A stretch of DNA of 64,000 nucleotides from a bacterium (lineage in GTDB: Bacteria > UBA8248): assembly GCA_965213685.1 (NCBI GenBank), contig CBDBZY010000041.1, positions 416,001 to 480,000 on the forward strand, written 5' to 3'. The notes under the pieces were generated by a model. That model had not been told where the DNA came from. It did not search any database and saw only the letters and a program-made list of their open reading frames with translations. The position numbers and the translations under genes were made by a program. This document shows, in pieces, positions 1,524-25,571 of the stretch. Position 1 is the stretch's first letter; the number at the start of each line of letters is the position of its first letter.

Positions 1524-4500
1524 ATGTCAGCCAAGGGTACGCTGGGCAACATCGAGGAGTTCGATGGCAGCAAAGACGACTGGCCGCAATACGTGGAACG
1601 TTTGGAGCACTTCTACGCAAACGAGATAACGGATGCAGACAAAAAGCGGGCTGTCTTCCTGTCTGTCGTGGGAGCAGCCACTTACAAGGGATCAACTTCA
1701 ATAGACGGACCAAGCGTGTAATCACTTCTGCAATAACTTTTAGCTGTTCCTAGCCTGTGCCTAGCCTACCCCTAGCCCTTGCCTATACCTAGCCTATACC
1801 CCAAGCCCTTGCCCTGTCACACGACTAAATAGTCAGGCGGTGAATATGCTACCGCTCGGCCCACCGCAGATTGATTTTTCTATGGTCTTGCCGTAACCTA
1901 TAGCCTCTCCTTCTTCCGGGCGTTCTATGGTGTCACACGGTTTGTGTGTGTATAGGTTACAAGAGTAAACACAATTGTTCGGAGCACCAGCACCCCTCGG
2001 TTGCTAGGGTCTAAAGGCCCTAGCAAGGATCATATCTGAATGGTTAGGCTAAGGACCTCCTTGCGCACGCACTTTGCGAGGTGCCGTGTATCCGACCTGA
2101 TCCCATGTAGGTTAGTCGTGTGACGGGGCGAGGGCTAGGGGTAGGCTAGGTACAGGCTAGGGAACAGCTAAAACCTATTGCGGAAGTGATTACACGCCTG
2201 ATCCGTCTATTGAAGTTGATCCACAACAAGGTCCTGCGAAACATCGTCTCGCCGGACAAGCCTGGAGACAAGACGTATGCGGCGCTGGTGGAGGCGCTTT
2301 CAAAGCATTTCAAACCTGCTCTCTCAGAAATAGTGGAGCGCTTTAAGTTCCATAGCAGAGTTTGGAACCCAGGTGAGTCAGTTGCGACATACTTGGCAGA
2401 GCTACACTCCCTCTCAGAGTTCTGCAACTTCAGGGACACGCTCGAAGTGATGATCCGTGACCGCTTAGTTTGTGGGATCAACGACGCCGCCATTCAAAAG
2501 TGCTTGCTTGCCGAATCAGGACTGACCTATGCGAAGGCTGTGGAGATCACACTGAACGCAGAGACCGCCGCAAAGAGCATGCGAGAACTGTGAGTAAAGT
2601 CAGAGGAGGTCTGGAAGCCACACCAATCCGTACACAGGACCAGTGCAACCTCGCCTTCGAGTGTTGGTGCCGAAGCAGCACCTACCTGTTACAGAGGACA
2701 TTTGGTTGCCAGGTGTAGGGTCAGGAAAGATGTGGTGTGCCACTACTGCGGCAAGCAAGGTCATCTACAGTGAATCTGCAAGAGCAAGGATCAGTGGAAC
2801 CAGAGCAGGAGCAGCAAACGCAAGATCCAGACCGTGGGTCGAGTCCAAGACGAGGAGGATGAGGAAGAGGAGTCAGCATTCAAGAGTGACTCTACTCTCT
2901 GCCACATGGGATCCCGTGGAGTGGCCGACTCACCTATCATGGTGAAGGTGAAGGTGGACAACTGTGTGCCAGTTAACATGGAAGTGAACACAGTGGGTCA
3001 CACTCTTTGATGTCGAGTCCACCTTCAGGGGGCTGTGGCCAGGGAGGAGCTTGCACCCCACTCCCATCAGGCTTCAGTCCTAGCCCATCCCAGTGCTAGG
3101 ATGTTGCAAGGTAAACATTGACTACCAAGGCCAGACTGGAGAGATGCCACTGGTGATAGTGGAGGGCTCTGGGCCCACCCTGCTGTGCAGAGATTGGCTC
3201 TGTTGTATCCAGCTGAACTGGAGAGAGATCCACCATGTGCACTCCCCATCTCTACAGTCTGTGCTAGCACGCTACCCCTCAGTTTTCCAGGAAGGCCTGG
3301 GCACCCTCCAGGGTTTCAAAGCCAGAATCTATGTGGACCCAGATGCTCCACCTAGATTTCACCCTGTGAGATCAGTCCCTTATGCCCTGTGGGATAAGGT
3401 CGACAAGGAACTCCAGCGACTCCAAGACGAGGGGACCCTCAAACCAGTGGAAATAGCCGAGTGGGCAGCCCCCACAGTGGTTGTTTTGAAGCGAGACAAG
3501 GATATTGTCCGCATTTGCGGTAACTTCAGTGTCACCATCAATCCAGTGTCGAAGCTGGATCGCTACCCAATCCTGAGGGTGGAAGACCTTTTCTCTTGAC
3601 TGAGCAAAGGAAAGTACTTTTCCAAGCTCGATCTCTCTCAGGCATGTCAGCAACTCCCCTTGGATGACCAATCCAAAGAATACGTCATGATCAACACTCA
3701 CAGTGGATTGTTTCGATATACCAGACTCCCGTTTGGTATCTCCTCAGCACCTGGTATTTTTCAACAAGTCATTGAGAGCCTCCTCCAAGGCATTGATGAA
3801 GTGGTTGTCTACCTGGATGATATTCTTGTCACTGGGAGTACAGAAGAGAGTCACCTCCAGGCACTTGACGAAGTGCTGAATCGCCTCGACAAAGCCAGTC
3901 TGAGAGTGAAGCAGAGTAAATGTGAGTTTCGAGGAAATCTGTGACCTACCTAGGTCACCGTATGGATGCAGATGGCCTTCATCCACTCCAGGTCAGGGTT
4001 AGAGCTATTGAAGAAGCTCCGACACCCACCTCAGTCTCCACACTGAAGTCATACTTGGGAATGCTGACATATTATAGCAGATTCCTTCCCAACCTTTCCA
4101 CCACTTTACATCCACTGTACCTCCTGCTTCGGAAGGACGCTCCCTGTAAATGGGGTGTCGACCAAGAGAAGGCTTTTGCCGCCTCCAAACAGCTCCTGAC
4201 TTCTGAAAGTTGCCTCACCCATTTCGACTCATCACTGGAGCTCACTCTGGCATGCGACGCTTCAGCGTATGGGCTGGGGGCAGTCCTCTCCCATAAGATG
4301 CCAGATGGATCTGAAAGGCCAATAGGCTATGCCTCTTGCACACTCAATTCCTCTGAGTGTAATTACGCTCAACTCGAGAAGGAAGGCCTCTCATGCATTT
4401 TTGGAATCAAGAAATTCCATGATTATCTTTTTGGTCGATCGTTTGAGCTTGTCACAGATCAAAAGCCACTGCTGGGCCTCTTGAAGGAGGATCGTGCAGT

Positions 4501-7877: not shown

Positions 7878-9657
7878 CTTCTTGAAGAAGAAGTGGTTGG
7901 CCAGGTGATTGAGGACCATGGGATTAGAGGAGTCGATTGTGTAGGCCTTTGAGAGAAGTTCAACACCTTTCTTGATGGAGTCATGCTGGGAGGGAGGGAG
8001 GGAGGGAAGGTGAAATGGAGTGAGGGAGAGGGGAGGGGAGAAAGGATGAAAGGGGGAAGGAGGTGTCCACACAGTTCCACTCACCTGTTTGCTGTTCAGC
8101 TCCAGAATAGCCATGCCCACCAGAGCACCCACACAGTGATAGTCTAGCTCCAGACACCGGTGGAACACCATCCTGTGGAAAGTACATGAGGAAAAGCTTG
8201 GGAACATTTTTAGACAACTGTGAAAAACCATCAGTCGGGATCGGGATTGAACCGGGGGCCTTCAGCTGTCAGTGCTCTACCACCTGAGTTATGGCCACCG
8301 GGTGACAACCAGCCTTCACAATTCTCAATATCACTCTGTATATGCCATCAGAATCCCACTAGGGATCGACCGGTAACTCCTCTCCATCAGGGGAGGAGCC
8401 ATACCAAGTGAAATATTCTATATATTCATAGCAGTGCATGTGAAGCTGGGTCTCCCTCTAGGGAGCCACCGAACACAACACGCAAGCTACGATTTACATC
8501 AGAAAGGCTTGGGAATACTCTAGAGAACTGTGAAAAACCAGCAGCCACCCGGGACTGAACAAACAGTGGTCATGGGACAGTTGTGTTTGCATAATACTGT
8601 TCACCTTGCCTTCTGCAGATTTCCGAGCTTCACAAAACACAGTCCCATTCCCAGTCTGACAGCACCTGGAATGGAATGACAATACATTCTTACATATACA
8701 GTACATGTACATGTATTAATCAGTTAATGAGACAAGGGAAAGCAAAGCAACTATGCCTGAACAGAATGACAACACATTCTTACGTATATGATGTACATGT
8801 ATATCCCACATGTACACGTGTACATGTACATGTACTCTAAGCCGATGAGGTTGCTACTTACATGTACTGTATATTAATATTTCTAAGCCGTTGAAGTTGT
8901 TGTGGATTTTAGTTTGTTTCATAGCGTGTGATTATTTTTTCTTTCTCTCTTTGTTCACTTCCTCCTTTGATTATGGTGCGCTATGCACATGATTGCTCAT
9001 GTACATTGTACATGCAATACCTAGGCAGTTTGGGTTTGTCCTGAGAGCCTTCTTGTAGAAGACCAGAACTCCCTTGTAGTCCTTCTTGTTGTAAGCAATG
9101 CACGCCTTACCCAGCAGAGCTGGGATGTTCTCTGGAGACTGAGGGAGGGAGGGAGGGAGGGAGGGAGGGAGCGAGGGAGGGAAGGAGGGAGGGATGGAGG
9201 GAGGGAGGGAGGGAGGGAGGGAGGGAGGGAGGGAGGAAGGAAGGGAGGGAGGAAGGGAAGGAGGGAGGGGCTAGGTCAGTGAGGACTAGCACCCATCGTG
9301 TTCCTCTAACATGCTTGAGAGGGTGCAGTGATCCCTCTAACAGAAACCAAGCATGACTCTATACAGAGTTTGCTGACTCAGCAAATTAAGTAGGGTCGTG
9401 TGGGCATATATGCAATGCCATGGGGCACGTGACTCAATTAGTCTACATGTACATGTATGTGTGCAACCTCCTCTGGAATCTACATGTATGACCTTGTACA
9501 CGTGGCAGCATTGGGTGACCTGCTGTAGGACGAAGGAGAACTGAGCGTCAGCCTGATCCATCTTGTCTCCCTCCAGCAGATAGAAGTAGGCACGGCCCAG
9601 CAGATGGTTAGTGTCATACATGATGATCTTGTCAGCAGTTGTGTAGAGGAATGTCGC
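7878..9657 (-). CDS. CTR9: CTR9 (PAF1 complex TPR subunit), five consecutive exons: 9657-9520, 9138-9021, 8665-8605, 8172-8085, 7985-7878
   Basis: Splices in frame with GT-AG introns to [40 protein letters not shown]...[21 protein letters not shown]...[20 protein letters not shown]...[14 protein letters not shown]...[35 protein letters not shown], matching animal CTR9. Adjacent upstream and downstream exons not found, so probably a partial copy. Confidence 0.93.
8183..8560 (-). mobile_element. tRNA-derived SINE-like repeat in a CTR9 intron (~310-bp period)
   Basis: Same family as 7455-7803; AACTGTGAAAAACC recurs at about 8216 and 8526. Confidence 0.8.
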
Positions 9658-10003
9658 CTGTGAGGGAGGGAGGGAGGGAAGGAGAGAGTGAGGGAGGGAA
9701 GGAGAGAGGGAGGGAGAGAGAGAGAGGGGAGAGGGGAGAGGAGGGAGGGAGGGAGGATAGAAGGGAGGAGTGAAGGCAGAAAGGAAAGGGAGAGAAAAAG
9801 AGACAGAAAGAGAGGGGAGGATAGAAGGGAGGATAGAAGGGAGGATAGAAGGGAGGAGTGAAGGCAGAAAGGAAAGGGAGAGAAAGAGACAGAAAGAGAG
9901 GGAGTGGCAGAGGGAAGGAGAGGGGAGGAAGCACAGGAGAAGGAAGAGGTAAAGTAACACTCATGTCCAGTAGCCACATAGAATGTCTCAAATCTTCCTT
10001 TCA

Positions 10004-10963
10004 TACCTGGGATACTATGGATATCCTGGGATAATCCCAGGACTCCTCAAAGCATTCCACAGTAGTCCCATAGCAACCACTAATTTAAAATTACCTAGAC
10101 AATCCCAGGATGAACTAAGTTCTCCTTGCAGCATGCCCCTTGTCCGAGTATCCTGGGATTCCTGGGATACACAGACTATCCCAGGATAATCCCGGGATGA
10201 ATGTACATGTACATGTAGTTCTCCTTGCAGCATGCCCCTTGTCCAAGTATCCTGGGATTCCTGGGATACACAGACAATCCCAGGATAATCCCAGGATGAA
10301 TGTACATGTACATGTAGTTCTCCTTGCAGCATGCCCCTTGTCCAAGTATCCTGGGATTCCTGGGATACACAGACCATCCCAGAATAATCCCGGGATGAAT
10401 GTACATGTACATGTACATGTAGTTCTCCTTGCAGCATGCCCCTTGTCCGAGTATCCTGGGATTCCTGGGATTCACAGACAATCCCAGGATAATCCCGGGA
10501 TGAATGTACATGTACATGTAGTTCTCCTTGCAGCATGCCCCTTGTCCAATTATCCTGGGACTCCTGGGATACACAGACTATCCCAGGATAATCGCGGGAT
10601 GAATGTACATGTACATGTAGTTCTCCTTGCAGCATGCCCCTTGTCCGAGTATCCTGGGATTCCTGGGATACACAGACCATCCCAGGATAATCCCGGGATG
10701 AATGTACATGTACATGTACATGTAGTTCTCCTTGCAGCATGCCCCTTGTCCGAGTATCCTGGGATTCCTGGGATACACAGACAATCCCAGGATAATCCCG
10801 GGATGAATGTATGTACATGTAGTTCTCCTTGCAGCATGATATTTGTCCGAGTATCCTGGGATTCCTGGGATACACAGACTATCCCAGGATAATCCCAGGA
10901 TGAATGTACATGTACATGTACATGTAGTTCTCCTTGCAGCATGCCTTTTATCCGAGTATCCTG
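10004..10963. repeat. Minisatellite of 97-105-bp units (about 8.5 copies) with internal inverted repeats
   Basis: GTTCTCC starts at 10119, 10218, 10317, 10422, 10521, 10620, 10725, 10822 and 10927; length varies mostly by TACATG hexamers. Confidence 0.97.
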
Positions 10964-11325
10964 CCTGCACAAGTATGATCATGATATCTATCCTGGGAAT
11001 GTGCCCCTACAGGTATCAACTTTAATGGAAATTGTGTCACTAAATGCACAAACCTCGTACTACAAACATTACTAATACCATTAATTCATAATTAAATTAC
11101 GAACCACATTTGAAATCAAAAATCAATGATGGTATGGCTGATTGGTATATAGCATTTTGGTAATGTTTCACACACGTTTGAACATAATATGGCCTGTGGA
11201 TAGACATAGGGTGTGAGACAAAGTTATAAGGTTAGGATGAAACTAGGATAGTGATGAGGCTATGTGATTAGATGATCTGTGATATCATGATGAGGTGGTG
11301 ATGAAGTTGTAAGAGATTTGGACGA

Positions 11326-13785
11326 TCACTGTTGGCTGCGTTCGGTGAACTCATTTGCTAGATACTTCCTTGGGGATTTCCTCGGAGACTTCCTCATTGG
11401 GACTACAACAGAACAACTACGTTTCCTACTCTCCAGGGAATTCCTATCCAATGAAGTGAGAAACAATTAAGCACTAGTGTTTCATGTGTAACAACATGTA
11501 TGCTACTCTTCCAACATAAGCCGCAAGCATATAATATATGCTGTTATTGGGTCTTCACAAGTTAAAGGCCAAGATAAATACACCAATGCACGTACATTGT
11601 GATGTCCTCTTCCTCTATTGCAGCCTTGAATTGCATCAATGACACCCCAAACTTCATGAGTTTTTCTGCCAGCTTTGCTGCCTCTTCTGGGTTTGATGGT
11701 AGCTCAGCTTTCTTTAACTCGTAGAGCTATACCAATGTTACATTAAAAAAATAAATAGACACACATGCATACATGTATATGCAAGTTGAAACACATTATC
11801 TCTTACGCACCATGTTAGTTCCACGCTGGGGTTTTCTCTCGATAACTTGCCCCAACTCTGCAGCCTGGAGGGCATAGAAGCCTTGCACTGCACCTTCTTT
11901 ATTGCCACGATCTCTAAATTTTTTCATTGCTAGTAGTGCATTGAGGTACAGAACCTTGCCTGGCAGAAGCAGTGAGTAGGCAGCATTAGCATGTGCCCAT
12001 CCTCCCATACGATCAGATATCTGTCCTTTGCCTGTGCAAATTTTATAAATATCTTTATAGATTGTTAATAATACACACTTGATACGCTGCATCATACAAG
12101 GCATAGGAATACTGTAGCATATGACATTGATCAGGAAGGCTGACAACCCATGTTGGTAGTATGTGTGTAGTGATAAGTGTACAGACCTGTTATGTCTACA
12201 TATGACTGTACATGTAAGTAGAGTACAAGATTTTGTGTCCTATTGTACGTCTCTTTGCTACGTTTAAGCCTCCTTGCTCAATGCTTTTAGTCATTTGTTA
12301 TTAGCTCTACATAAGGACAGTATACCTACACATGTAACTAACCTGGCTTCAATGCTTGGATTGCCTCACGTATATCACCTCTTCCTGCCAAATATGCTGC
12401 ATGCTGCAAGCAAAGGTCAACAAAGTTGACAGCAGCTGTAATGGCCTCTTCAGAAACGTGGTCTGGCACTTTGAGAGGGGTGTCACAGTGAAACAGAACA
12501 TGAAGGGCTGCAGCCACACGAAGAACTTGTCCCTTACTCTTGCTCAACATTCCTAGTGATATAAGAGTGGTTAATCCAATAACACCTCAGAAGTAATTGA
12601 TATAGGGGATTGAATATTATAATTCCACACCATGTGAATTTATGAGTGCATGTTTCAACTAGCTGAAGTACTCAGATACTCCCAGAATCTTAGAAGTTAT
12701 GTATTAGTAGTATCCTAACTTGCACTAGGCTTGTGGGAGAAGATGACAGCATGATGTAGGCAGGCCATGACCAGGAGTGCTTCTTAAATAGAGTAATGTG
12801 TCAGCCAATGTTTACTAGAAACACTAAGGGTGCAAAGTGTTAAATGATACTTCTTGGGTGTGAATAACACCTTACCAGATAAAAGGTCATCCATGCATGA
12901 AACCTGTTGGATTTGCTCTTGGATCATGTCAAACTTGTCCCTGAATGTTGTGATGGACCGAGACAGCTTCCAAGCCCTTATTTCCTTGCCATTGGTCCAC
13001 AAGGATGCCATTAAGCCAACTGTACAAAGAAAAATACACTGGCTATAAAATCTCATGTTCTGGCCAAGAGGTGTGTATTGGTGTATGCACTTTCCATGGC
13101 CACTACTGTACCAACATGTATACTATGGTTTTAACACAGAGCTGATGGTTGAAACTCACTAATAGAAACTGAAAAATCCTTATCAACTCTCTGAAGATCA
13201 TCAAATCGTACAATGTTGGGTTTTGGAATACACCACAAAAACCGTTGACTGAAGCCTTTCTCGGCATTTGTAGGCAACTCCATCAAAGTGCGAGCAACTG
13301 CAGGTTGTGTAAATCCTCCAACAGTGAGGCCAGTATACTTCATTTCGAAGTTAGCATCACCAGACACTACAAGGTAACAGATCATGTAAACCCTTTCATG
13401 CTAAGGTGTATGAAAGGGTAGCCCACCTGTTTTTCTAACCCACTGACTTCCACCATAAAGTTGGAGAAGAAGTGCTAACTCATGGGAGTCAGAAAATCCC
13501 CGTCCACGAAACACATTGATTTGTGAGAGAAACATAGGTAGTTCATCGTAGAGACCCAATAGCTTCCAGTTGTTGTCATTCATAAGGGCACCCATCTTCT
13601 CAAAGGACTGATCGTCCAAAAACCAAGATGGCTGGTTCTCCTCAAGGCCACTGTTGGATCTGGCATCCTCAACAAGCTTGCGTAAATACTTGCACAAGGA
13701 CGATTTTCCGCTTCCAGTGGGCATGCACACAGAGATCCACAGGAGGACTGGCTCAATCCAGTCTGTACCTTCCACAGACTGGATT
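11326..13785 (-). CDS. Multi-exon DUF3987-like P-loop NTPase, N-terminus missing
   Basis: WIEPVLLWISVCMPTGSGKS (Walker A), LLGLYDEL (Walker B-like), GGFTQP, GFSQRFLW, SKSKGQVLRVAAALH. Exons about 13785-13427, 13366-13160, 13019-12876, 12553-12343, 12031-11797, 11727-11594 and 11445-11326; distal boundaries approximate. Confidence 0.7.
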
Positions 13786-14386
13786 GGGAGCTGGTTCATC
13801 ATCAGCTGTTTTGCTGGCTAGGGTGTGCACAGTTTGTCCACAACTACTGTGAGAAATATCATGCACCTCACGAACAATTCCTGCTTCATACTCTTCAATT
13901 AGTTGGTGAGGTAGCGATGACTCTGGCTCCCACATGGCAGTTGTTCTGTCCTTTCCAAGCCAAACAACCTGCATGTAAAGTTGAACATGTTTCATGGACT
14001 ATGAGTTATGTACCTAGGTGACAAATGCACCAAAATGGAAGTAGATTGTTATGTAATAGGACACAGGAATCTTGTGGTCAGTTTACATAGCAAGAGTGCT
14101 TCATTAATGTTCCAACACTTTACATTCTGAACACCTGGCCTAGCATATCAAATTTCAGTACATATTTGAATGAGTTAGGAAGAATAGTTTACATGGACTT
14201 CCATTGTAGTGAAGGATACTAGAAGCATAGGGTAGAAAGTATAAGAGAGCAATAATTTATTAGTACAGCTGTGTGTATATGCTTAATATGAGGGCTCTTT
14301 AATTAGGATATACATGTACAAGTACATATGTGTTAATCTACACCTACACATTAGTTTGGCAAGAGGGCATAACAAGAGAGCCTTAA

Positions 14387-16422
14387 AGGGGGGGGGGGGA
14401 CATGCCCAGTATCCAAAAAAATTTTATTGCATAATTGTAATTTCATGAATATTTAGATAATTTTAGTGATTTTTAAATATTTTTTACTCGCAACGTTAAC
14501 CGGAAAAACACGTTTCTATTCCGTTGCGGTTTCAGCCTACTTAAAATTCATAAATCTTCTTCCTGTATGGGTGTGGTCACGTGTGACGTCACAGAGGGGA
14601 GAGTATCGCTGGTCTAGCCAGTCAGCGTACGTGGTTACAGCCGTGGATCGTGCTCCTAGTAGCCGTTCTAGCGATGCTAGTAGCATCTTAATCTTCTACT
14701 ATTCTTAGTATTTCTTGCAAGGGACCAAGGAAAGCAACGGTGCGTCCGAGTACCGCGATTTAGACTGAGGAAGTGTGGTTGTCCGCGGTACCTTGACTGG
14801 AGGATACGACTCGTTTCCGCGCACAAAGGGACGACTCAAGCGAACCAAGACCAGAACAGACTCAGTTACAGCGAGTGATGAGGCGGTGCTACATATGAAA
14901 GACGTTTCCATGTAGCTATAGCTTGGAGCTAGTGAAATGAGTCAGTGCAGTGGCAATTGACTCTGAGTGTACATGCAGGCTGAGCCCTGACAGCGGACGA
15001 AGTGCTGGAGCTTGGCTATCATGACCACCAAGCACATTGCCAGGGCATGAAAGATTTGTTTAAATATCTGGGTTCTCCAAGCTGCCTACTGCTCTTACAA
15101 ACAGCACCATGGTAGTCGGACTTCAGGGAACATGAGTAACAGTCACATGTGCATTTGTCTTGTTTGCATGTTTCATCTGTCAGCTTTTTCAAGCAGTATA
15201 AATATATCGCTGGTCAGTGCTGGAGGTGACTTGGAAGGAATGTGAGCCGTTACCCAACTGTGTTGTTGTTATGTGGTGGTCAGAAAACATTTCCATCGAA
15301 ACGATGTACCCAATTCATTGAATGATACAAAAGATGTACCAAAATCGTTTAATTATAGATGTAAGAGCTGTATCATGTGCCCATACACATACAGATAAGC
15401 TATAGTTAATGTATACTTCACTTGTATAACAGTCATCACATCATGCTAATGAAGTCATACTATTACATGTAAATGCTCATAGCAGCAATACAGTGCTTGT
15501 GATACAGAATATGGTGTTGACGTCACCTCACAGCTCACAGCTAAAGCTACCTCTGCAGGTGAAACTCAGCATCTTTAGTTATATACCAAGCACATGAGCC
15601 ATTGATCTCAGCAACACATACATGTATATAGGTATTGCTTGTACTAGAGCATTCCTTTTGCTTTGACCCTCCACACAACAGACTCACGGGCATCACTTGC
15701 TGGGATTGTCCTTAACGGACCTAGTCTCAGCCAAGACCGCTCTCTCCTTTTGTATGCCTGTCTTGGTTCTTTACCAGCCTCGTATCACCGTTTGTAGTTG
15801 CTTCAGAGCTTGTGGTAACTCTACCTCCACCGCTACCGCTAACCCAGCTGAAGCGGAATAACAACTCGGGTGCAGCTTGCCACTCGGACTCCAAATACGG
15901 CGGAAAATGTACCAGGCCTGCTTGGTCGGTCCTACAGTTGCTTCAGTGGTTGACTCGAGCTCAAAACGTTCTTCGGTGAAGTGCGTTTCTATACAGAACG
16001 CTCCAATGTCGCGAGTTCTCTGAACGTGTCTGGCCCACCGCTGTGTCAGAACTACAAGGCTAGGAATCTTGAAGAAGCTGATACTACCATTTCTAGTGTT
16101 AGTATATATAGCTGCAACGCACAACTTCACCGTTTCTGATACTTCGTGGCCAACTAGCGCGATTCTGTGTGTACACGAACGCACGTTGAACTCGATCTCT
16201 CTCCCCTCTCTGACGTCACGTGTAACCACGCCCAGACCGGAAGAATTTTAGGGAATGTTGGGAATGTTGAAATTACTTCAATTATCGCACGTTTTCTAGG
16301 CTCGTTTTCCAGGTAATGCTGGAACTAAAAAATTTAGAAAAATATTTTTAATTATCTACACTGCATGGGTATCACAAAAATGTACAAAGTGACATAGTGA
16401 TTTTGGGCATGTCCCCCCCCCT
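14387..16422 (-). mobile_element. Non-autonomous Kolobok-like DNA transposon (2036 bp) in an intron
   Basis: TTAA TSD (14383-14386, 16423-16426); AG...CT termini with TIR AG(n)ACATGCCCA; subterminal inverted blocks at about 14545-14603 and 16198-16250; internal THAP remnant. Confidence 0.85.
15958..16130 (-). pseudogene. Degenerate THAP zinc-finger remnant
   Basis: VKLCVAA...SISFFKIPS...QRWARHVQRTR...C.ETHFTEERFE fits the THAP C..C/FP/W/C..HF pattern. Confidence 0.7.
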
Positions 16423-18084
16423 TTAATAAAGTGAGTCTGCTATCACCATCCAACAGAGGGCAGCTACATACAAGCACATGATAAAATTAATGATGCCTAT
16501 AGTACCTGATAATGAGTCTGGGTTCTTGTTAGTCGCTTGCTAGGTATCAGTCCAACCTGATTTGGTGCCATATGTTGATCTGATGTTTCTGAAGTGGCTT
16601 GGGTGGCTGTTGGCTTATGCAAACCACAGTATCTAGACTTGAAATCAGGTGTGTTGCTGCAGCCAGTTGTAACTCTACCAGGAAGACCCAGGTACTCTAC
16701 AAATCCTGCTTCCATAGCAAAACACACATCACGGTGGTTTTTCATGTTTCCATCTATTACAAGAGTTTCTCCACAGCCTCTAGCCCTGCAGCGATGTCCT
16801 GTTATGATACACAAGGTAAATACGTTGGGGGTGGGGGGGACACATTTAGCATAAACAATAACTGTGCTATGCATATTATATACATACTATCCACCCAAAC
16901 TTACTACACATGCAACTAAAATGTGCATGCATGTGTATCCATATCCTAGTATAGTGACATCTCACCAGAGTTTTTCTTCATGAAAGCCTCATAAAATGTG
17001 CTACCAATTTGCAGCAGCGTGTCATTGACAGCTCCATGAAGAGGAAGGTCAGACAACTTCAAGTCATACCAGGCAGTAACTCTTAAGATGGCATACTGAA
17101 AATGGGCATCTTCAAGCCTTCATCTGTCCATAAGGCGGCGTTGGTTCAAGGAGCTGAAAGGTATGCTGCAAGTACATAATTATACCACATAAATAATTTG
17201 TTTTTAAACACTGCATGCACTGCACATGAATGGGGACACACCTGTGAAAAAAATGGTCGTTGGAACTGCTGTTGTGGACATGGTTGTATATATCAGTTCG
17301 CTGCTTGTAACTAAGTTGCCCTATTACTACCTCTGCATCAAGGCGCTTCAACATGTCCATTGAAAAGGCTGTTTCTTTGGAAGATACAAAATAGGGAAGG
17401 GAATTCCAGTCACTGTTGTAAATTACAGCACAAGATTGGGGTCCACCTTTGGTGTAGTAACCATAGTACTGAAAGAAGGGACATATCCTACGAGAACAGT
17501 ACTTGTGGAAATGGGAGGCTGGTAAAGTTCCACGTAAATCATCATACACAACAACTCGCACTGGTCTGTCTTTCCTAACTAAAAGTTTGCTGCCACAGAG
17601 AATGCAGGTACTGTTGTCACTTATGAGTGGAAGTCCCAATGGTTTGGCTGCAGGTAACTCCAGTTGAAGTACTTGCTTAAAAAGTACTTCATCAGTGGCA
17701 AAGGCAGATGAATTCAGTGTTTGGATATTTTCTGCTAAGGCTTTAGCTTGCTCAGGTGTTAGTGAAGATTCACTCTTCCCATCTGTTGCAAACTGCACAA
17801 CAAGACTCCAAAACTCTGGCAAATGCGGTGATAGAAAAACTGCTGCAAAAAGGATCTTTCTAAGGATGGATGCATCCTTTATATACTTTGCAATAAGCTC
17901 CAACATCTCCTGACTCTGATCTAGCTACACTCAGCAACACACCATGTGCTTTCACACCTTTCTGAGCATGCTCACATGCAAGTTGCAGCACATGGACTTC
18001 TCATGCTATGTGGTTTTACACCCTTCTGAGCATGCTCAGATGTGAGCTGTAGCACATGGTATTTGCTTGAGTGTGAAAGAAATG

Positions 18085-18463
18085 GCAGCCATATCACCAT
18101 GTCACCGTCGCCACCCAGCCACTGCTGTTGACAATATAGATGCGTGTGTGCACCCAGCATTGAACTGTATGCTTTATCCATTTCATGTGGTCCCGGTAGT
18201 ATAATAGGTAGGGCATCAGGCGGTGAAGAAAGTATGACCAACAAGCCACTGGTTTTGGAGATTACCTCACACAAAGTATATGCATATTATGTCACCATCA
18301 CCACCAGCCACTGCTGTTGACAATATACATGCGTGTGTGCACCTAGTATTCAACTGTATGTTAACCATTTCACGTGGTCCCGGTAGTGTAACAGGTAGGG
18401 CATCAGGCGGTGAAGAAAGTATGACCAACAAGCCACTAGTTTTGGAGATTACCTCACACAAAG
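18085..18463. repeat. ~190-bp tandem duplication upstream of the CxC5-like exon
   Basis: Two near-identical copies each ending GATTACCTCACACAAAG. Confidence 0.9.
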
Positions 18464-19324
18464 CATGTCACTTCACAATCCCCCAAAAGCATCTACTATT
18501 GACCATAAAACGTCTCATAACAAGGTACCAGAAAACTTTGAACGTTGTCCCAGTAGTGGACACAGGATAACGTTTTTTCATAGTTTCTAAACCATCCTGG
18601 TACAGAGATAATCTCACACAAACACCAGAACAGCTACTTCATAGAACATTCAAGCGCGAAAACGCAGCTGTCATGAGCTTCTATACAGACAGCGTACATA
18701 CACGACACTCACAGAGTCCCACGTAATCCAAGAGAGGACTTGAAATACGCAGAGCCGTCCTAAGAGGCTAGTTCAACGCGCTTTTGTACACATAAGTCGT
18801 GCACGTCCATCTTTCGCAACCGATGCAAGGAGTGTTTCAAGGATTTCCGTAAGTTGTCCGTGTACGCGTGCCGTTTCTAATCCACGTAGTCTACAATATC
18901 TATGGTGCAAGCGTGCATGGGCATGCGTTTGGGACCTTTGTCCGGATAATCATGATGTCCGTGTTTCAGGAGTCCAGCATAAGGGGTTCGACTGTACTAC
19001 TAGTGGAATGCTGGGCGAGCGGGAGCGAACCAGCTACAATCATAATTAAATGCTTATCTATTTTGATACATTTTAGTTTATGTACTATATACATGTAATG
19101 AAGATCTTATGAAAGTAGCACCATTTGCAAGATTAGCCAAAGTGTACAACCCTCAGACTGGCCTCTTGGAGACAAAGTTAATGTCCATGGTTACGGAGGA
19201 ATTGCCTGTTTAGCTATGACCTTTTCAGCGCGAAGGTGTGAAGGAATTTTAAATGACCATAAACGACGGTAACGGAAGTCCCCGCCCCTTGGTGGGCCAT
19301 GGTGTAGAAGTGAGCGCTTTTGTT

Positions 19325-19595
19325 CCAGGTTCTGTAAGGCCCTATCTCCTGTAGTGAAGGACCTATACTTAGACATGTTGTCAATGATGAACCAGGAGGA
19401 AGGAGACATCCCATACCTGTACGACTGCAGATTTGTAGACGACCTAAAGATCTAAGCCGCGCCTCCCATCGACCATGCAGGATGGATGGCTTACTTTATA
19501 AAACACCCTGGTGTATACATTCAGCAGCAAATTCAGTGGAAAAGCCTAGAAGCCTACAGCTATTTCAGAAGCGGACATGCGTAGGATGTGGATTC
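19325..19595 (+). pseudogene. Remnant of a SWIM/YqaJ-type transposon accessory ORF (Kolobok ORF2-like); continues at 27587-27680
   Basis: KDLYLDML...IPY...QWKSLEAYSYFRSGH, and beyond the 8-kb insertion SQSSPDNAHHTWIGITSYEQIVTA. Confidence 0.65.
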
Positions 19596-19782
19596 CAGTG
19601 CTCTCAACCTCTCAATAACAATAGGAGGGAGATCAAACTTTTAAATGAGTGAGATTAGGAACAAAATGAGTGAGATAACCAACATTAATAGGGTTTGGAG
19701 ATAATCTATTGATGTAATTGTTTTTTGCTACTGTTAGCTCTATAGTACGTGGTCACGTGGACGTTGGAAGCAAAATTAGTTA

Positions 19783-19816
<34 letters not shown>

Positions 19817-19873
19817 CACACACCACTAAAGGTGAAAACGTAGAACAGAAAAGAATAGAAAGGAAAGACAAAG

Positions 19874-22786
19874 TTAAGCACATGATATAATGTATATAAT
19901 ATCATCGAACGGAGAAAATCGACCAAAAGCAATTCTGTAACGTCGAATGACTTCAGCACACAGCATATCCTCAGAAGAATACATTTTTATGTGTCGATGA
20001 CCAGAAATAAAGTTATAACCAGCGAAAGAATATGCACACTGAGATGCTTCTTTGAAGACGTACTTAACAAGAGGTGAGAGAGATGTTACAGCACGAGAAA
20101 GCATAGAATGAAACCTCATATACAACATATTAGACACTGACTGAATGTTACTAACACAGTGTACAATTCTTGTGTGAGAGTGTGGTGGTAGGTTCCATAT
20201 TCTCCTAAACATTTTGTTCAATGAACATTCAATGATACGCAAATTCTTGCAAGACAAATACCATAGTGTGCTACCATACATAGACAAACAAAATTGCTTG
20301 ACAAGAAAATTCTTTACGGAGAGATCTGCAAATGGAAATACACACTGAACAAAGTTAGCTTTCCGAGTCATATCTTTCGTTGCCCTTATAATATCAGATG
20401 TGTCATCCAAATTGTAAGACAGCACATGCCCGAGATGAGTGATTGTGTCCATGAAGTCCAGAGCAATACCACCAAAGTTAATGCAATCTTTACATGAGGA
20501 TGAAGAGGACAAACCAAATCTGATCAATTGAGTCTTTTCTGCATTGAACTTGAGGCCATGAGATTGTGCGAACTCCTCACAAGTTGTTAGCATAATTCGT
20601 AAAGCAGATGGACACGGAGCTAGCAGGGCTATGTCATCTGCATAACACACTGCACCAACAAAGTGAGCCCCCCAATAACATCCAACACCAATTCGAGACA
20701 GCTTCTGCAATAATCCATCCAAATACACAGCAAACAACACAGGAGACAACACACTACCTTGACGAACACCATTAGAAACAGAAAACGAATGAGACACACA
20801 AGAATTCCAGCGAACACACATTTGTTGACTACTATACCAACTTAGAAGAAAATGGAGAATAGGAGTTGGGAGACCACGAGAATGAAGAATATCAAATAGA
20901 ATGCCATGATCCACCAAATCAAATGCTTTGCTTGCATCTAAAAAACAGCCATAAACCTTAGAACCTTTACGTATATACCTAGAAACAATATTCTTTATGA
21001 GTCCTGTGCAAAGAGTTGTTGAATGACCTTTCTTGAAGCCAAATTGCAAAGCACTACTTGTAAAGTAGGATTCATATCTGGAGAGTATTATTCTTTCCAG
21101 GACTTTACTCAAGAGAGATGCAATTGCAATTGCTCTGTAGTTTTTACTGCTAGAATGATCTTTGTTATTTTTTGGTATGGGGACCAACGTACAATCTCGA
21201 ATACACTTGGGCATGTATCCATGACGAAGAACAGCTGTGAAAAAAGCAGACAGAGGACCAGCAATGGGGAGTGCAGAGAACCTTAAATGCTCAGCAGATA
21301 GCTGTGCAGAATCCACCTTGTTAGGCTTGATTAGATGGATTGCATTCAGTACATCATCAATGGAGACATGAACAGTTGAAAGATGATCAAGAGATAAAGA
21401 GATATTTGAAGCTTGAAGCAAAGTGTGCCGTAAAGAGGAACTGTGTGTATTGAGAAGGCCCTGCAACTTAGAAGCCCACAAGTTTGCAATGTCATTACCA
21501 TCAGAAACACCATCAACAACTGGAGCACATCTGGAATTTCTGGGTTTTGTCAATTTATTGACTAGTGACCAAAAGTCTTGAGGGTTTTTTCGACAGTAAG
21601 ACTTAGCTAACTTATCCCGTAACAAATACATCTGTTGCCTTTTGACTTTACGGGCTGCAAATTTATACCTCTTTTTTGCCTTCTTCTTTATATCAAAGAG
21701 AACGCCCGATTTAGGGCATCCAGCTTCCAACCAAACATGATACCAGAAATTGGTTTCATGCCTCAACTTCCTCGGCCCATCATTCCAGCCCACCAGCCCT
21801 CTGTGCTTTGACTTCATGTGAGAAGGAATGCAGGATGCTGCACATTTCAAAAGGCATGTGACAAGCATATCAGCAAAGCGATCAATACAACTAAGATGTG
21901 ACAAGCAATTAGGCGAACAACAAGAAGCAACATCAGGAGGAAACGGTGGAAGTGACTGAGCAACTAGCTTAGAGTAATTATCAAGATCTTCTTTAGATGC
22001 TTTGTCCCAGTCCAGACTAGGAGAGGAAGAAAACGAATGAGAAGTGGTATCTATCAAAGAGCAATCGACGTTAAGAGTAAATGCAATTGGATGATGGTCA
22101 GAAAGATTAGAACCCAGAAGCACACTTGTAACATGTGACACTATATTTGAGTTATGAATAGAACACAGAACATGATCAACCCAAGATGTTACAAGCCCAT
22201 CATCTCGCTCGTAAGTAAATTGAATAGCGTCTGGAAAGGAAAGATCTCGTGCACAGAGATCCCACTCATCCATAAAATCCAAAAGCAACTGAGTTAAACT
22301 GCCACCCCGAGAAAAATCCACATTAAAATCACCAACAAGTAAATTCACATCACACTTATGAAACTCCAAGAAGCCCTCCAACTCACCAATTGTACTTAGG
22401 TACTCATCAAAGCAAAATGAATGCGACTGAGCAGGCATATACACACAAACCACAAGGACAGAAACACCACAGGAATCATGCAATTTGACAGCACAAAAAC
22501 GATTAGAATTACATAAAAGTGGTGTAATGGAAGAAAACAAAGATCGCCGATACAAAATGGCACAGCCCCCATATGGCCGTCCACACAACAACACACTACC
22601 ATCAATACCACTAACCGAGACACTGTGAAAATCAGGGTGAAACTCATTCAGCAGATACAGCTGATCAGGTAGCAACCAATGTTCCTGAATGAAACATATA
22701 TCAAGAGAACCAATCAAGTCCCAAAGAGTTTGTTTACCACTATTCCAACCTCTACAATTATAAGTAAGGCACTGTAGCGGGGCCAT
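19874..22786 (-). CDS. LINE ORF2: apurinic endonuclease plus reverse transcriptase (970 aa)
   Basis: TYNCRG, QEHWL, GDFN, DHV, SDH; FLDASKAFD, GVRQGSVLSP, YADD, HLG. Confidence 0.96.
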   Translation of the reverse strand: MAPLQCLTYNCRGWNSGKQTLWDLIGSLDICFIQEHWLLPDQLYLLNEFHPDFHSVSVSGIDGSVLLCGRPYGGCAILYRRSLFSSITPLLCNSNRFCAVKLHDSCGVSVLVVCVYMPAQSHSFCFDEYLSTIGELEGFLEFHKCDVNLLVGDFNVDFSRGGSLTQLLLDFMDEWDLCARDLSFPDAIQFTYERDDGLVTSWVDHVLCSIHNSNIVSHVTSVLLGSNLSDHHPIAFTLNVDCSLIDTTSHSFSSSPSLDWDKASKEDLDNYSKLVAQSLPPFPPDVASCCSPNCLSHLSCIDRFADMLVTCLLKCAASCIPSHMKSKHRGLVGWNDGPRKLRHETNFWYHVWLEAGCPKSGVLFDIKKKAKKRYKFAARKVKRQQMYLLRDKLAKSYCRKNPQDFWSLVNKLTKPRNSRCAPVVDGVSDGNDIANLWASKLQGLLNTHSSSLRHTLLQASNISLSLDHLSTVHVSIDDVLNAIHLIKPNKVDSAQLSAEHLRFSALPIAGPLSAFFTAVLRHGYMPKCIRDCTLVPIPKNNKDHSSSKNYRAIAIASLLSKVLERIILSRYESYFTSSALQFGFKKGHSTTLCTGLIKNIVSRYIRKGSKVYGCFLDASKAFDLVDHGILFDILHSRGLPTPILHFLLSWYSSQQMCVRWNSCVSHSFSVSNGVRQGSVLSPVLFAVYLDGLLQKLSRIGVGCYWGAHFVGAVCYADDIALLAPCPSALRIMLTTCEEFAQSHGLKFNAEKTQLIRFGLSSSSSCKDCINFGGIALDFMDTITHLGHVLSYNLDDTSDIIRATKDMTRKANFVQCVFPFADLSVKNFLVKQFCLSMYGSTLWYLSCKNLRIIECSLNKMFRRIWNLPPHSHTRIVHCVSNIQSVSNMLYMRFHSMLSRAVTSLSPLVKYVFKEASQCAYSFAGYNFISGHRHIKMYSSEDMLCAEVIRRYRIAFGRFSPFDDIIYIISCA

Positions 22787-24357: not shown

Positions 24358-25571
24358 CCAACAACAACAACACAGGACTCACTTCGCACGTGCAGCATGC
24401 GTTAATAGGTCCACCATGGAAGACGACAGCACAGTAGAAACCCACGCGAACGAACGGACGGACACGGAGACAGAGGCGATGACTGACTTCCTCGAGTTTG
24501 CTGGACGAAGGGCGAGAGTCGGCTGTTTGCTGGACGAAGGGCGAGAGTCGGTTGCTGTGAATTTACTTGTGCTATAGTGCGATAATCTATGCACACGTAT
24601 GATCATGAGCGCCTAGAGCATAAGGCCCGAGGGGCGCGCGCGAGGCGCACGTGGTTGAACCTATCTAGCTCGAACGCGCGCTAGTTAGCTACGTACGTGC
24701 GTACACGCGTGTGGTACCGGTACACCCCTTTCACATCCCCTATATACGGCGAGTATACAGTCGGCAGCGCAACCGTTGACGGGTCGACGACCCTAGCCTT
24801 GCGGAGCCACACTTTCTCGCGCACATAAGTAATATCCTGCGTGAGATTTGGGTGTGCTTTGCGGGTGAGCGTGAGTGACATACTAAATGCGTGAGTCTCA
24901 CGCGCAATGCGTGAGAGTTGAGAGGTCTGCAGTGATGTACCATCTCGTCATCTCTGTAAAGGGTAACTTGGTATTCTGCCACCACTTCCTTAGTTTGTCA
25001 GAGGTGCACTGGTACATGGTAGAACACAAGACTAGTGGAATAGCAAACGATGTTCTACTTAAGTTAAAGGAGAATATTATAAAACATAAATGAGGCAAAA
25101 AAGGACAAAAAGCAACCAAAATAACAGCGAGTCTTTAATTTGAAGGTGGCTCCAGTAGAAAAAAGACAAACTCTACGGATGGTAATTGACTCCCTTCTTG
25201 CTCACACACTGTTGCGTACGTGAATCGAAGCCATTGCTCGTATGCTCCTTGCCATGTGTGCATGTCGGTCAGTCGTATATATAGAGAAGCGGCTATATGG
25301 TACACCCTTAATCATCCAAGTGTCGGGTCGACCTGAGACTGAATGCCAACGACGCGCCATTGCGCCAGAGGTGTTGCACTTCTTACGTCAAGCTCCATGA
25401 CTGTATATATGTTTCACATCAACACCAACGAAGCCCAAGCTACCGATAACTTGCTAGTGTCGTATGTGTGGTGACAACTGAAGAGCCTTTCAGTAAATAA
25501 TTTATAACCGGTCTTTCCGTATGCCGAGCCCAGCAACAAGCTAGCTAAAAATGGCTACGTTAAAATAATGT

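What the first reader, a model, noticed from the sequence alone, without database searches (positions are those of the whole stretch)
11326..17906. KDZ/Zisupton-type CxC-chromo gene fused to a spliced DUF3987-like NTPase
Seen: one minus-strand exon chain runs CxC5-like, CxC6-like/DGN, chromo-like (YQ|VVWLG...WEPE), then within a single exon near 13780 switches frame into a Walker A/B protein continuing over six more exons. The transposase C-terminus and the NTPase N-terminus are both missing. Known: CxC5/CxC6 clusters accompany KDZ transposases, and DUF3987 is mainly described from prokaryotic mobile elements. Inference: an internal deletion of a large element that carries both a chromodomain transposase and a replication-type NTPase, a pairing I do not know to be described.
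Basis: partly seen in the sequence, partly recalled or inferred. Interest (0 to 1): 0.8.

Follow-up and report, generated by a model that had tools for sequence, protein, structure and literature searches.

The report
Broken KDZ transposon carrying helicase-like gene
This is a decayed, rearranged copy of a two-gene DNA transposon in an animal host contig, pairing a cysteine-cluster/chromo-like transposase with a phage-type helicase-like ATPase; the apparent gene fusion is a rearrangement scar, but the pairing recurs and appears undescribed.

Summary
The exon chain is real. On the minus strand lie a CxC5 ORF (Pfam, just above threshold), a Cys-rich 'DGN' exon and a chromo-like exon. After a frame change at 13777/13778 comes a DUF3987-family P-loop gene lacking roughly its first 60-100 codons.

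The window sits on a low-GC, intron-bearing contig, probably from a sponge host, mis-binned with a 65% GC bacterium.

The pairing is not chance. In 4.7 Mb of such contigs, 2 of 3 DUF3987-like loci abut KDZ-type transposase pieces. A diverged metagenome contig carries the same pair.

In those two other loci the genes lie head-to-head between inverted tandem-repeat arrays. One public contig also joins 13777 to 18100 on opposite strands, so this locus exists head-to-head too.

The 'fusion' is therefore one end of a 4.3-kb flipped segment in a decayed copy. That copy has lost the catalytic core, one array and the NTPase 5' part. It also holds a nested, polymorphic piggyBac-like element. It is not a simple internal deletion, and no fusion transcript is shown.

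What looks new is the element type: a KDZ transposon with an MCM-related (SF6) helicase-like second gene. None of the papers I searched mentions it.

The parts
10118..10963 (.). Tandem array of a 99-bp unit, 8.4 copies. It lies just 3' of the NTPase gene, where C18a, C18b and L008 have their subterminal arrays. No inverted partner array was found.
   Evidence: TRF. Positions of the arrays in the other loci. Only self-hits in the genome. Unrelated to the 187-bp tandem unit at 18099-18463.
11565..11726 (-). Last homology-supported exon of the DUF3987-like gene (C-terminal tail).
   Evidence: tblastn to the C18a copy, E 1.5e-4. A donor-like GT follows it.
11802..11981 (-). DUF3987-like gene, C-terminal-domain exon (approximate limits).
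   Evidence: tblastn to C18a (3.3e-9) and C18b (2.7e-4).
12348..12586 (-). DUF3987-like gene, exon matching profile positions 312-362 of 364.
   Evidence: Pfam E 9.2e-6, 25.5 bits. AG acceptor and GT donor. Aligns to P0035 residues 307-368.
12805..13038 (-). DUF3987-like gene, middle exon (approximate limits).
   Evidence: tblastn to C18a, E 2.9e-5.
13160..13366 (-). DUF3987-like gene, second exon (GDANF...QRFLW block). It follows a 60-nt GT-AG intron at 13426-13367.
   Evidence: Pfam E 1.1e-6, 28.6 bits, profile positions 189-243. Splice sites. Alignment.
13427..13777 (-). DUF3987-like gene, first retained exon. It carries Walker A (GSGKS) and Walker B (YDEL). It is cut at its 5' side immediately before the motif VEGTDW.
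   Evidence: Pfam E 1.7e-9, 37.8 bits. Alignment with 23 relatives. 415 representative relatives at E up to 1e-3.
13777..13778 (.). Breakpoint. Here transposase homology and NTPase homology meet in different frames. It is one end of the 4.3-kb segment found in the other orientation in a public contig.
   Evidence: Joint 13777<->18100 'opposite strands' in run X1: 1 contig, depth 228.9, no letters shared across the joint.
13778..13968 (-). Chromo-like exon (VVWLG...WEPE), truncated after about 60 homologous residues.
   Evidence: Pfam Chromo E 0.0029, 17.9 bits, profile positions 20-51 of 53. tblastn to C18a, 4.2e-7. Acceptor in phase with the donor at 16506.
14383..16422 (.). Nested 2040-bp non-autonomous element in the intron. 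It has TTAA on both sides, CCC..GGG-type inverted ends and a weak THAP-like ORF (16247-15774). It is high-copy, and present/absent among public contigs.
   Evidence: Empty-site joint 14382->16423 in X1 (2 contigs) and X5 (2 contigs) at single-copy depth; depth inside is 50-100 times the flanks. Inverted ends. Flanks. THAP E 0.0025.
16506..16798 (-). It ends ...HYQ, which supplies the first strand of the chromo-like domain.
   Evidence: tblastn to C18a, 2.5e-16. No Pfam family at E up to 10. Splice sites.
16966..17119 (-). Short exon (RLEDAH...) between the CxC5 ORF and the DGN exon. Its 5' limit and its link to the CxC5 frame are unresolved (short intron or frameshift).
   Evidence: A similar ORF sits at the same relative place in C18a (24379-24564), by reading; tblastn did not report this pair at E up to 0.01. 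Donor GT after 16966.
17115..17924 (-). CxC5 cysteine-cluster ORF of the transposase, 270 codons, open.
   Evidence: Pfam PF18718 E 3.7e-6, 27.5 bits against cut-off 26.9. Atlas nearest clusters are CxC5 (0.98, 216 of 256 features). tblastn to the L008 exons, 1e-12, 2e-8 and 7e-8.
18100..18101 (.). Other end of the flipped segment. A 187-bp tandem unit and sequence at about 10 times depth start here.

Best explanation
The region is a dead, rearranged copy of a two-gene DNA transposon of the KDZ (Kyakuja-Dileera-Zisupton) superfamily. It lies in a eukaryotic host contig, probably sponge, that was binned with a bacterium.

The family's normal layout, as seen in two other loci, is two intron-bearing genes transcribed away from each other, enclosed by inverted arrays of 68-91-bp tandem repeats.
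- Gene 1 is the transposase: CxC5 cluster, Cys-rich DGN exon, chromo-like domain, KDZ core.
- Gene 2 is a DUF3987-family P-loop protein. That family belongs to the MCM-related SF6 helicases of phages and bacterial mobile elements.

In the window copy:
- The 5' part of gene 2 is gone (roughly its first 60-100 codons).
- The catalytic core of gene 1 is gone.
- One array is gone.
- A piggyBac-like element has landed in an intron.
- The 4.3-kb piece holding the transposase N-terminal half (13778-18100) lies flipped. Its chromo-like exon therefore runs straight into the truncated NTPase exon in another frame.

The 'fusion' is a rearrangement scar, not a gene.

Inferred, not shown: in intact elements the transposase cuts and pastes; the arrays are its binding sites; the chromo-like domain helps choose chromatin; the NTPase acts as an element-encoded ATP-driven DNA helicase or remodeller that helps transposition or repair of the donor gap.
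For: Domains:
- CxC5 is above Pfam's cut-off. Two of the three DUF3987 pieces are above it and the third reaches 25.5 bits against 27.
- The full-length relative P0035 (469 aa, named by NCBI as an uncharacterized protein of the nemertean Tubulanus polymorphus) scores 101 bits on DUF3987. It scores E 2.7e-24 on PHROG 2373 'DNA helicase'.
- Walker A and B are conserved in 24 aligned sequences.

Host contig:
- C41 is 46% GC and has GT-AG introns, against 63-69% GC for the bacterial contigs.
- 0 of 41 genomes of the bacterial family hold the NTPase. They are 2-4.6 Mb against 8 Mb for this bin.
- Some holder runs are labelled sponge metagenome.

Recurrent pairing:
- tblastn of all pieces against the bin finds 3 DUF3987-like loci (window, C18a, C18b) and 3 KDZ-like loci (window, C18a, C64). 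Two of the three DUF3987-like loci touch KDZ pieces within 0.5 kb.
- The only locus returned by the metagenome scan (1 of 599 pattern matches confirmed), L008, has CxC5 exons on one strand (4998-4210). The NTPase gene starts about 560 bp away on the other strand.
- L008 is only 67-75% identical in DNA to C18b.

One element:
- Inverted arrays enclose the pair in C18a (82/83-bp units, 70-87% complementary), in L008 (68-bp units, up to 96%) and around a core-only remnant in C64 (91-bp units, 97-99%).
- Four of the five arrays share the 8-mer GGAC[AT]GTC, which occurs 0.03 times per kb in 4.67 Mb.

Rearrangement:
- Homology on both sides stops at 13777/8.
- Run X1 has a 1208-nt contig at single-copy depth joining 13777 to 18100 on opposite strands. 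This gives the head-to-head order.

Literature:
- KDZ elements are known to carry accessory genes (passages of PMC12477816 and PMC12730594).
- DUF3987 proteins are SF6-type helicases. One was shown to unwind DNA 5' to 3' (passages of PMC4889955 and PMC11724360).
Against: - No intact copy was seen. Every locus lacks something, so the 'normal layout' is assembled from C18a (no CxC5) and L008 (CxC5 only).
- The KDZ catalytic domain is absent from the window. In C18a it reaches only E 0.12 (12.5 bits against 26.6) in Pfam, and the C64 pieces score nothing. The KDZ label for the core rests on that, on Atlas leads (0.96) and on the CxC5 hit.
- Chromo is below threshold.
- No terminal inverted repeat outside the arrays and no target-site duplication were defined.
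- The flipped form rests on one contig of one run (1 of 4 runs laid). Only 172 of its 462 remaining letters were placed on the 13777 side.
- There is no inverted repeat at the breakpoints. I cannot say why both ends of the flipped piece coincide with the two truncation points.
- My idea that an NTPase N-terminal remnant lies beyond the CxC5 ORF failed its test.
- The window's 99-bp array lacks the shared 8-mer, so its belonging to the element rests on position only.
- The window's NTPase exons are all open, unlike the three other copies. That could mean recent decay or some retained use.
- The function of the NTPase in transposition is pure inference.
Confidence: 0.7

Rival explanations
1. The intact element has the transposase gene followed by the NTPase gene on the same strand. 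A single internal deletion, from the chromo exon to the second NTPase exon, made the junction.
For: Both genes are truncated exactly at the junction. Internal deletions are the usual fate of cut-and-paste elements (general knowledge). C18a and C64 are clearly deletion derivatives.
Against: In the 2 of 2 other loci that hold both genes, they are head-to-head. A public contig shows the head-to-head join for this same locus. A single deletion cannot turn divergent genes into co-oriented ones.
Confidence: 0.12
2. The orientation in the window is an assembly error. The true locus is head-to-head, and the apparent fusion does not exist in any genome.
For: The only independent junction evidence (X1 contig) shows the other orientation. 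No contig bridging 13777/13778 appears in the partial list of contigs that one search printed.
Against: There is no inverted repeat at the two ends that could mislead an assembler. The window lies in a 589-kb contig. The output lists only the longest contigs, so the absence of a bridging contig from that list proves nothing.
Confidence: 0.25
3. A domesticated chimeric gene. The host expresses a CxC5 / chromo-like / NTPase fusion, or an N-terminally shortened NTPase, from this locus.
For: All NTPase exons and the 270-codon CxC5 ORF in the window are open, while the copies in C18a, C18b and L008 carry stops or frameshifts. The locus is held, in part, by runs of several coded organisms.
Against: The two parts are in different frames with a stop 22 nt after the junction. 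The CxC5 and next exon are also out of frame. The catalytic core is missing. There is no transcript evidence.
Confidence: 0.05
4. Chance neighbourhood. The NTPase gene is a host gene or a separate element that merely lies next to transposase debris.
For: One NTPase locus (C18b) and one transposase remnant (C64) occur alone. P0035 is annotated as an ordinary protein of a nemertean.
Against: With 3 + 3 loci in 4.67 Mb, two contacts within 0.5 kb are expected by chance with a probability of the order of 1e-5 (my estimate). The same pair occurs in a diverged contig (L008). Inverted arrays enclose both genes.
Confidence: 0.04

Closest known systems
KDZ (Kyakuja-Dileera-Zisupton) DNA transposons: fish Zisupton, fungal KDZ with TET/JBP genes, Cryptococcus KDZ1-3, giant KDZ of Ectocarpus and Chlamydomonas
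   Same: A CxC-type cysteine cluster lies N-terminal to the transposase (CxC5 hit). A paralogue continues into a KDZ-like core. The elements are multi-gene with accessory genes and inverted ends (passages read in PMC12730594, PMC12477816 and bioRxiv 10.1101/2024.08.15.608186).
   Different: The accessory gene here is a DUF3987/SF6 helicase-like NTPase, not TET/JBP or an unknown ORF. The host is an animal. The ends are long inverted tandem arrays. The 8-bp target duplication reported for Zisupton and KDZ1 was not checked. The clade within KDZ is undetermined.
DUF3987 (PF13148) helicases of phages, plasmids and integrated elements, e.g. AgaPH and the phage SF6 helicases of Kazlauskas et al. 2016
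   Same: There is a profile match over the whole domain (P0035 101 bits; PHROG 'DNA helicase' 2.7e-24). Walker A and B are present.
   Different: The setting is eukaryotic and spliced. There is no PriCT or primase domain in the 469-aa relative (only DUF3987 passes). The best phage match is 30.6% identity over 26% of the protein. The partner is a transposase instead of a primase. No activity has been tested.
Transposons with their own NTPase helper: Helitron (Rep plus helicase), and bacterial Mu (MuB), Tn7 (TnsC) and IS21 (IstB). Recalled, not tested.
   Same: The logic is the same: a recombinase gene plus a P-loop or AAA+ helper gene within one mobile unit.
   Different: The protein families and recombinases are different. 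Nothing here shows target selection or rolling-circle replication. This is a working analogy only.
Chromodomain-bearing integrases of chromoviruses and Mavericks. Recalled, not tested.
   Same: A chromo-like module is attached to a mobile-element recombinase.
   Different: Here the module is sub-threshold in Pfam. It sits between the DGN exon and the core of a KDZ-type transposase rather than at an integrase C-terminus.

Membership tests
KDZ transposon superfamily | CxCn cysteine cluster associated with the transposase | tested here: met
   PF18718 CxC5: E 3.7e-6, 27.5 bits against cut-off 26.9, profile positions 6-116 of 117. Atlas: 19 of 30 hits are CxC5 clusters, best 0.98.
KDZ transposon superfamily | KDZ transposase catalytic domain (PF18758) | tested here: not met
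   Window: no core on contig C41 (tblastn with the C18a core). Paralogue C18a: best Pfam family is KDZ but E 0.12, 12.5 bits against 26.6. C64 pieces: no hit. Atlas lead 0.96 to KDZ clusters. The window copy therefore lacks it, and the family-level assignment is inconclusive.
KDZ transposon superfamily | Terminal inverted repeats and target-site duplication (8 bp in Zisupton and KDZ1, per the passages read) | tested here: inconclusive
   Inverted subterminal arrays in C18a, L008 and C64. Outer termini and duplications were not defined. The window has one array only.
CxC6 (PF18721) | Profile match | tested here: not met
   No hit at E up to 10 for window 16886-16500 or for the C18a counterpart.
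Chromo domain (PF00385) | Profile match above the gathering score | tested here: inconclusive
   Window exon: E 0.0029, 17.9 bits against 25.1. C18a exon: E 0.16. Only the C-terminal half lies in this exon.
DUF3987 (PF13148) / SF6 helicase | Profile match above the gathering score | tested here: met
   Window exons: 37.8 and 28.6 bits (cut-off 27), and a third at 25.5. P0035: 101.1 bits.
DUF3987 (PF13148) / SF6 helicase | [quoted passage not shown] | tested here: met
   Walker A (GSGKS): its first G and K are invariant, its S, second G and final S at least 90% conserved (A2). Walker B (YDEL): its D is invariant, its Y and E at least 90% conserved. From the alignments of 24 and 10 sequences including the window.
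DUF3987 (PF13148) / SF6 helicase | C-terminal winged-helix domain and hexameric helicase fold | tested here: inconclusive
   The AlphaFold model of P0035 has mean pLDDT 52.2 and pTM 0.44, too poor for a fold search. No PDB sequence match at E up to 10.
DUF3987 (PF13148) / SF6 helicase | Association or fusion with a primase (AEP or DnaG), as in phages | tested here: not met
   P0035 has only about 60-70 residues before the P-loop, and no primase family appears in Pfam. No primase was noticed in the ORFs read beside the four loci. That was not a systematic search.
DUF3987 (PF13148) / SF6 helicase | ATP-dependent DNA unwinding | not testable with these tools
   Biochemistry is needed.

The most novel reading that the evidence does not exclude
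Animals harbour a lineage of KDZ-superfamily cut-and-paste transposons that encode their own phage/plasmid-type, MCM-related (SF6, DUF3987) helicase. It is a second, divergently transcribed gene between inverted tandem-repeat arrays. The helicase would be a working part of the transposition machinery, for example acting at the arrays or in replication or repair of the element. Its ancestor would have been taken from a prokaryotic mobile element. That would be a new helper class for eukaryotic DDE-type transposons.
Probability: 0.35. Interest if true: 0.75.

Novelty: new variant of a known kind. Interest (0 to 1): 0.55.

Why it matters
KDZ elements are among the largest and least understood DNA transposons. 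Their known passengers are mainly fungal TET/JBP genes.

A recurrent pairing with a helicase family otherwise known from phages and bacterial mobile elements would do three things:
- Extend DUF3987 into animal genomes. At least 415 representative relatives were found, most of them exon-sized fragments.
- Give a testable candidate for a helper ATPase in a eukaryotic cut-and-paste transposon.
- Offer a marker pair for finding intact, possibly active copies.

On the practical side, the case also shows that this 'bacterial' genome bin holds about 4.7 Mb of host DNA.

Tried and rejected
1. NTPase N-terminal remnant beyond the CxC5 ORF (+ strand 18046-18100). I proposed this after seeing that the X1-type junction reads through in frame. 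It is rejected. The summed alignment score to 13 relatives is 211 against shuffles of 208.8 +/- 19.2, and 208 of 500 shuffles reach it. No ORF piece on either strand of 17925-19775 stands out, best z 2.6.

2. The 187-bp tandem unit at 18099-18463 as the missing partner of the 99-bp array. There is no similarity in either orientation: score 8 against shuffles of about 9.7-9.9.

3. Wider protein searches.
- The CxC5 ORF against longer proteins found none.
- The NTPase exon against longer proteins found 2.
- P0035 against proteins of near length found only itself.
- These are word-based searches and are weak evidence of absence.

4. More loci.
- Genome contigs with alignment A2 and with the CxC5 ORF: nothing.
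- Viral contigs with A2: nothing.
- 41 genomes of the bacterial family: nothing.
- The cross-organism evidence for the pairing therefore rests on one contig, L008.

5. Structure. The model of P0035 is too poor (pLDDT 52), so no fold search was run. PDB by sequence gave nothing.

6. Expression. No RNA holder is listed among the 24 runs, so transcription and splicing could not be examined.

7. Contig cover. No contig bridging 13777/13778 appears among the pieces printed, and that list is cut. This is no evidence either way.

8. Other joints with 20-25-letter sides at 9463-10985 lie in repeats and were ignored.

9. C64 termini. A 22-bp direct repeat flanks the mini-element, but it coincides with repeated exon ends of a host gene with repeated VLWTKVG-type exon ends. 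I did not treat it as a target duplication.

10. Literature. Five searches.
- All 13 papers holding 'DUF3987' concern bacteria, archaea or phages, judged from the search listing. I read passages of two.
- No listed KDZ or Zisupton paper mentions DUF3987. 'Helicase' co-occurs with Zisupton only in five listed papers. In the one whose passage I read (PMC12730594), 'helicase' refers to Helitrons; the other four I did not open for that term.
- Passages were read in PMC12730594, PMC12477816 and 10.1101/2024.08.15.608186.
- Repbase reports, subscription papers and supplements were not visible and could hold a description.

Full report
WHERE THE WINDOW LIES

The window is G000:C41:416001-480000. G000 is filed as a prokaryote genome, but its 71 contigs fall into two classes.
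- Many contigs are 63-69% GC.
- A few large ones are 44-53% GC: C64 1.64 Mb, C18 0.81 Mb, C41 0.59 Mb, C16, C51, C7 and others.

C41 has microsatellites, SINE-like repeats with dozens of copies and genes split by GT-AG introns. None of 41 other genomes of the bacterial family holds the NTPase. They measure 2-4.6 Mb against 8 Mb here. Several public runs that hold part of the stretch are labelled 'sponge metagenome'. I therefore read the window as host DNA, probably sponge, binned with a symbiont.

THE OBSERVATION

On the minus strand lie the following pieces.
- A 270-codon ORF at 17924-17115. It passes Pfam CxC5: E 3.7e-6, 27.5 bits against a cut-off of 26.9.
- A short exon ending at 16966.
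- A Cys-rich exon at about 16798-16506 that holds the DGN motif. It has no Pfam family at E up to 10.
- An exon from 13968 that matches the C-terminal half of Chromo below threshold: E 0.0029, 17.9 bits against 25.1.

From about 13775 a different frame encodes a P-loop protein. Its three largest pieces hit successive parts of DUF3987, at 37.8, 28.6 and 25.5 bits against a cut-off of 27. Walker A and B are conserved in an alignment with 23 relatives. Five further homology-supported exon blocks follow, down to 11565. Every NTPase block in the window is open.

Relatives that extend upstream carry about 20-40 homologous residues before the motif VEGTDW. The window has unrelated residues there. The NTPase N-terminal part is nowhere else in the window. 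The transposase core is nowhere on C41.

A NESTED ELEMENT

The intron between the DGN and chromo-like exons holds a 2040-bp insertion at 14383-16422.
- Public contigs of two runs skip exactly this piece at single-copy depth.
- Depth inside it is 50-100 times the flanks.
- It has inverted ends and TTAA on both sides.

It is therefore a piggyBac-like non-autonomous element that is still polymorphic. The weak THAP-like ORF lies inside it and is not part of the chain.

IS THE PAIRING CHANCE?

Local tblastn of every piece against the bin finds three NTPase loci: the window, C18:21.6-23.9 kb ('C18a') and C18:806.9-810.0 kb ('C18b'). It finds three transposase-type loci: the window, C18a and a core-only remnant at C64:1559.5-1560.2 kb.

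In C18a the NTPase gene runs on the minus strand from 23922. On the plus strand, 450 bp away, run the short exon, the DGN exon, the chromo-like exon and then two core exons.
- Pfam's best family for one core exon is KDZ, at E 0.12.
- The protein atlas places it next to KDZ clusters at 0.96.

With 3 + 3 loci in 4.67 Mb, two contacts within 0.5 kb are very unlikely by chance. I estimate the order of 1e-5.

The one locus confirmed in the metagenome scan (1 of 599 pattern matches) is L008.
- It carries CxC5 exons on one strand (4998-4210; tblastn to the window's ORF 1e-12, 2e-8 and 7e-8).
- The NTPase gene, with its start-codon exon, lies about 560 bp away on the other strand.
- L008 is only 67-75% identical in DNA to its nearest relative here, C18b. 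It is a diverged, independent witness.

ONE ELEMENT

Arrays of tandem repeats in inverted orientation enclose the genes.
- C18a: 82- and 83-bp units at 20404-20838 and 26894-27870, 70-87% complementary.
- L008: 68-bp units at 2108-4110 and 7943-9653, up to 96% complementary.
- C64: 91-bp units on both sides of the core remnant, 97-99% complementary.
- C18b: a 70-bp array 3' of the NTPase gene.
- Window: a 99-bp array in the same position, at 10118-10963.

The units differ. Those of C18a, C18b, C64 and L008 share the 8-mer GGAC[AT]GTC, which is rare elsewhere at 0.03 per kb. The window's unit lacks it.

The family's layout is therefore array, NTPase gene, transposase gene, array, with the genes head-to-head. 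Every copy seen is defective.
- C18a lacks CxC5 and has stops in the NTPase.
- L008 keeps only CxC5 of the transposase and has a stop.
- C18b has a frameshift and no transposase.
- C64 is a 2-kb remnant.

THE JUNCTION

The window's genes are co-oriented, which one deletion cannot produce from a head-to-head element.

Laying public contigs on 9001-20000 gave one contig of run X1: 1208 nt, depth 228.9, the single-copy level there.
- 746 nt lie on 18100-17355 with 6 differences.
- It continues on the opposite strand from 13777, with no shared letters at the joint.

That is the head-to-head order for this very locus, with the same truncation of the NTPase at VEGTDW. The window and that contig therefore differ by the orientation of 13778-18100.

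I found no inverted repeat at the two ends. I cannot explain why both ends coincide with the truncation points. Only one contig of one run (1 of 4 laid) shows the joint, and only 172 of its other 462 letters were placed. A true inversion polymorphism, a paralogous copy and an assembly flip of the window all remain open.

Whichever holds, the chromo-to-NTPase junction is a breakpoint, out of frame and followed by a stop 22 nt later. It is not a designed fusion.

WHAT THE NTPASE IS

The family is large. There are 415 representative proteins at E up to 1e-3, 210 at up to 1e-10 and 20 at up to 1e-30. Nearly all of the best 150 are 60-250 residues long, as expected for exons read by a prokaryotic gene caller.

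One full-length relative, P0035 (469 aa), is an NCBI 'uncharacterized protein' of the nemertean Tubulanus polymorphus on a 31.9-Mb contig.
- It scores 101 bits on DUF3987.
- It scores 2.7e-24 on PHROG 2373 'DNA helicase'.
- Its best phage match is 30.6% identity over 26% of its length.

Passages read in PMC4889955 class DUF3987 with the MCM-related SF6 replicative helicases of phages. Passages in PMC11724360 report 5'-3' unwinding by a PriCT-DUF3987 protein. Unlike those, the animal protein has no primase partner domain. A structure model was too poor to use.

HOW IT MOST LIKELY WORKS

Shown:
- Two genes within one array-bounded unit.
- A CxC5 cluster.
- An NTPase with intact Walker motifs.

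Inferred:
- The transposase binds the repeated units and cuts and pastes the element.
- The chromo-like module biases it to certain chromatin.
- The NTPase is a helper helicase or remodeller.

The window copy itself can do none of this. It lacks the core, one end and the NTPase start.

COMPARISON AND NOVELTY

KDZ elements with several genes and with accessory genes are known (passages in PMC12477816, PMC12730594 and bioRxiv 10.1101/2024.08.15.608186). This is therefore a variant of a known kind.

In five literature searches, all 13 papers that hold 'DUF3987' deal with prokaryotes or phages, judged from the listing. No KDZ or Zisupton paper listed mentions DUF3987. Repbase reports, subscription journals and supplements were out of reach.

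VERDICT

The fused gene is a scar. The pairing behind it is real and appears undescribed, but it is documented by defective copies only, in one partial genome plus one contig.

Noticed in passing
whole bin G000 (contigs C2, C7, C16, C18, C41, C51, C56, C64 and smaller ones): About 4.7 Mb of 43-53% GC, intron- and satellite-bearing contigs sit in a 'bacterial' genome whose other contigs are 63-69% GC. Relatives of the bacterium are 2-4.6 Mb. The completeness and contamination figures (94.2 / 3.7) do not reveal this.
   Followed up: partly
window 14383-16422: A 2040-bp piggyBac-like non-autonomous element with TTAA flanks and inverted G-run/CATGCCC ends. It holds a weak THAP-like ORF. Its depth is 50-100 times single copy. 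An empty-site allele occurs in two public runs.
   Followed up: partly
window 19775-22000 and beyond: A high-copy repeat with copies 96-99.8% identical on C7 and at six or more places on C64. It looks like a recently active element and was not classified.
   Followed up: no
window 8182-8560: A short interspersed repeat with well over 100 hits at 75-88% identity across the low-GC contigs.
   Followed up: no
L006 8404-8838 and 14894-15870; L007 17678-18207; L008 2108-4110 and 7943-9653; L009 5670-6267 and 7485-7620: The subterminal array units of four family members differ in length (68-91 bp) and sequence. They share the near-palindromic 8-mer GGAC[AT]GTC, a candidate transposase binding site.
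   Followed up: partly
L009 5531-5552 and 7862-7883 (C64): The 2.2-kb core-only mini-element lies between two 22-bp direct repeats. These coincide with the ends of two similar exons (VLWTKVG...) of a repeat-containing host gene. This may be exon duplication or an insertion between repeated exons.
   Followed up: no
window 18099-18463: A 187-bp unit repeated 1.9 times starts exactly at the 18100/18101 breakpoint. From here on, public depth is about 10 times single copy.
   Followed up: partly
L008 12307-14501: Three long ORFs (187, 163 and 222 aa) have no Pfam hit for the two that were tested. They may belong to another mobile element on the same metagenome contig.
   Followed up: no
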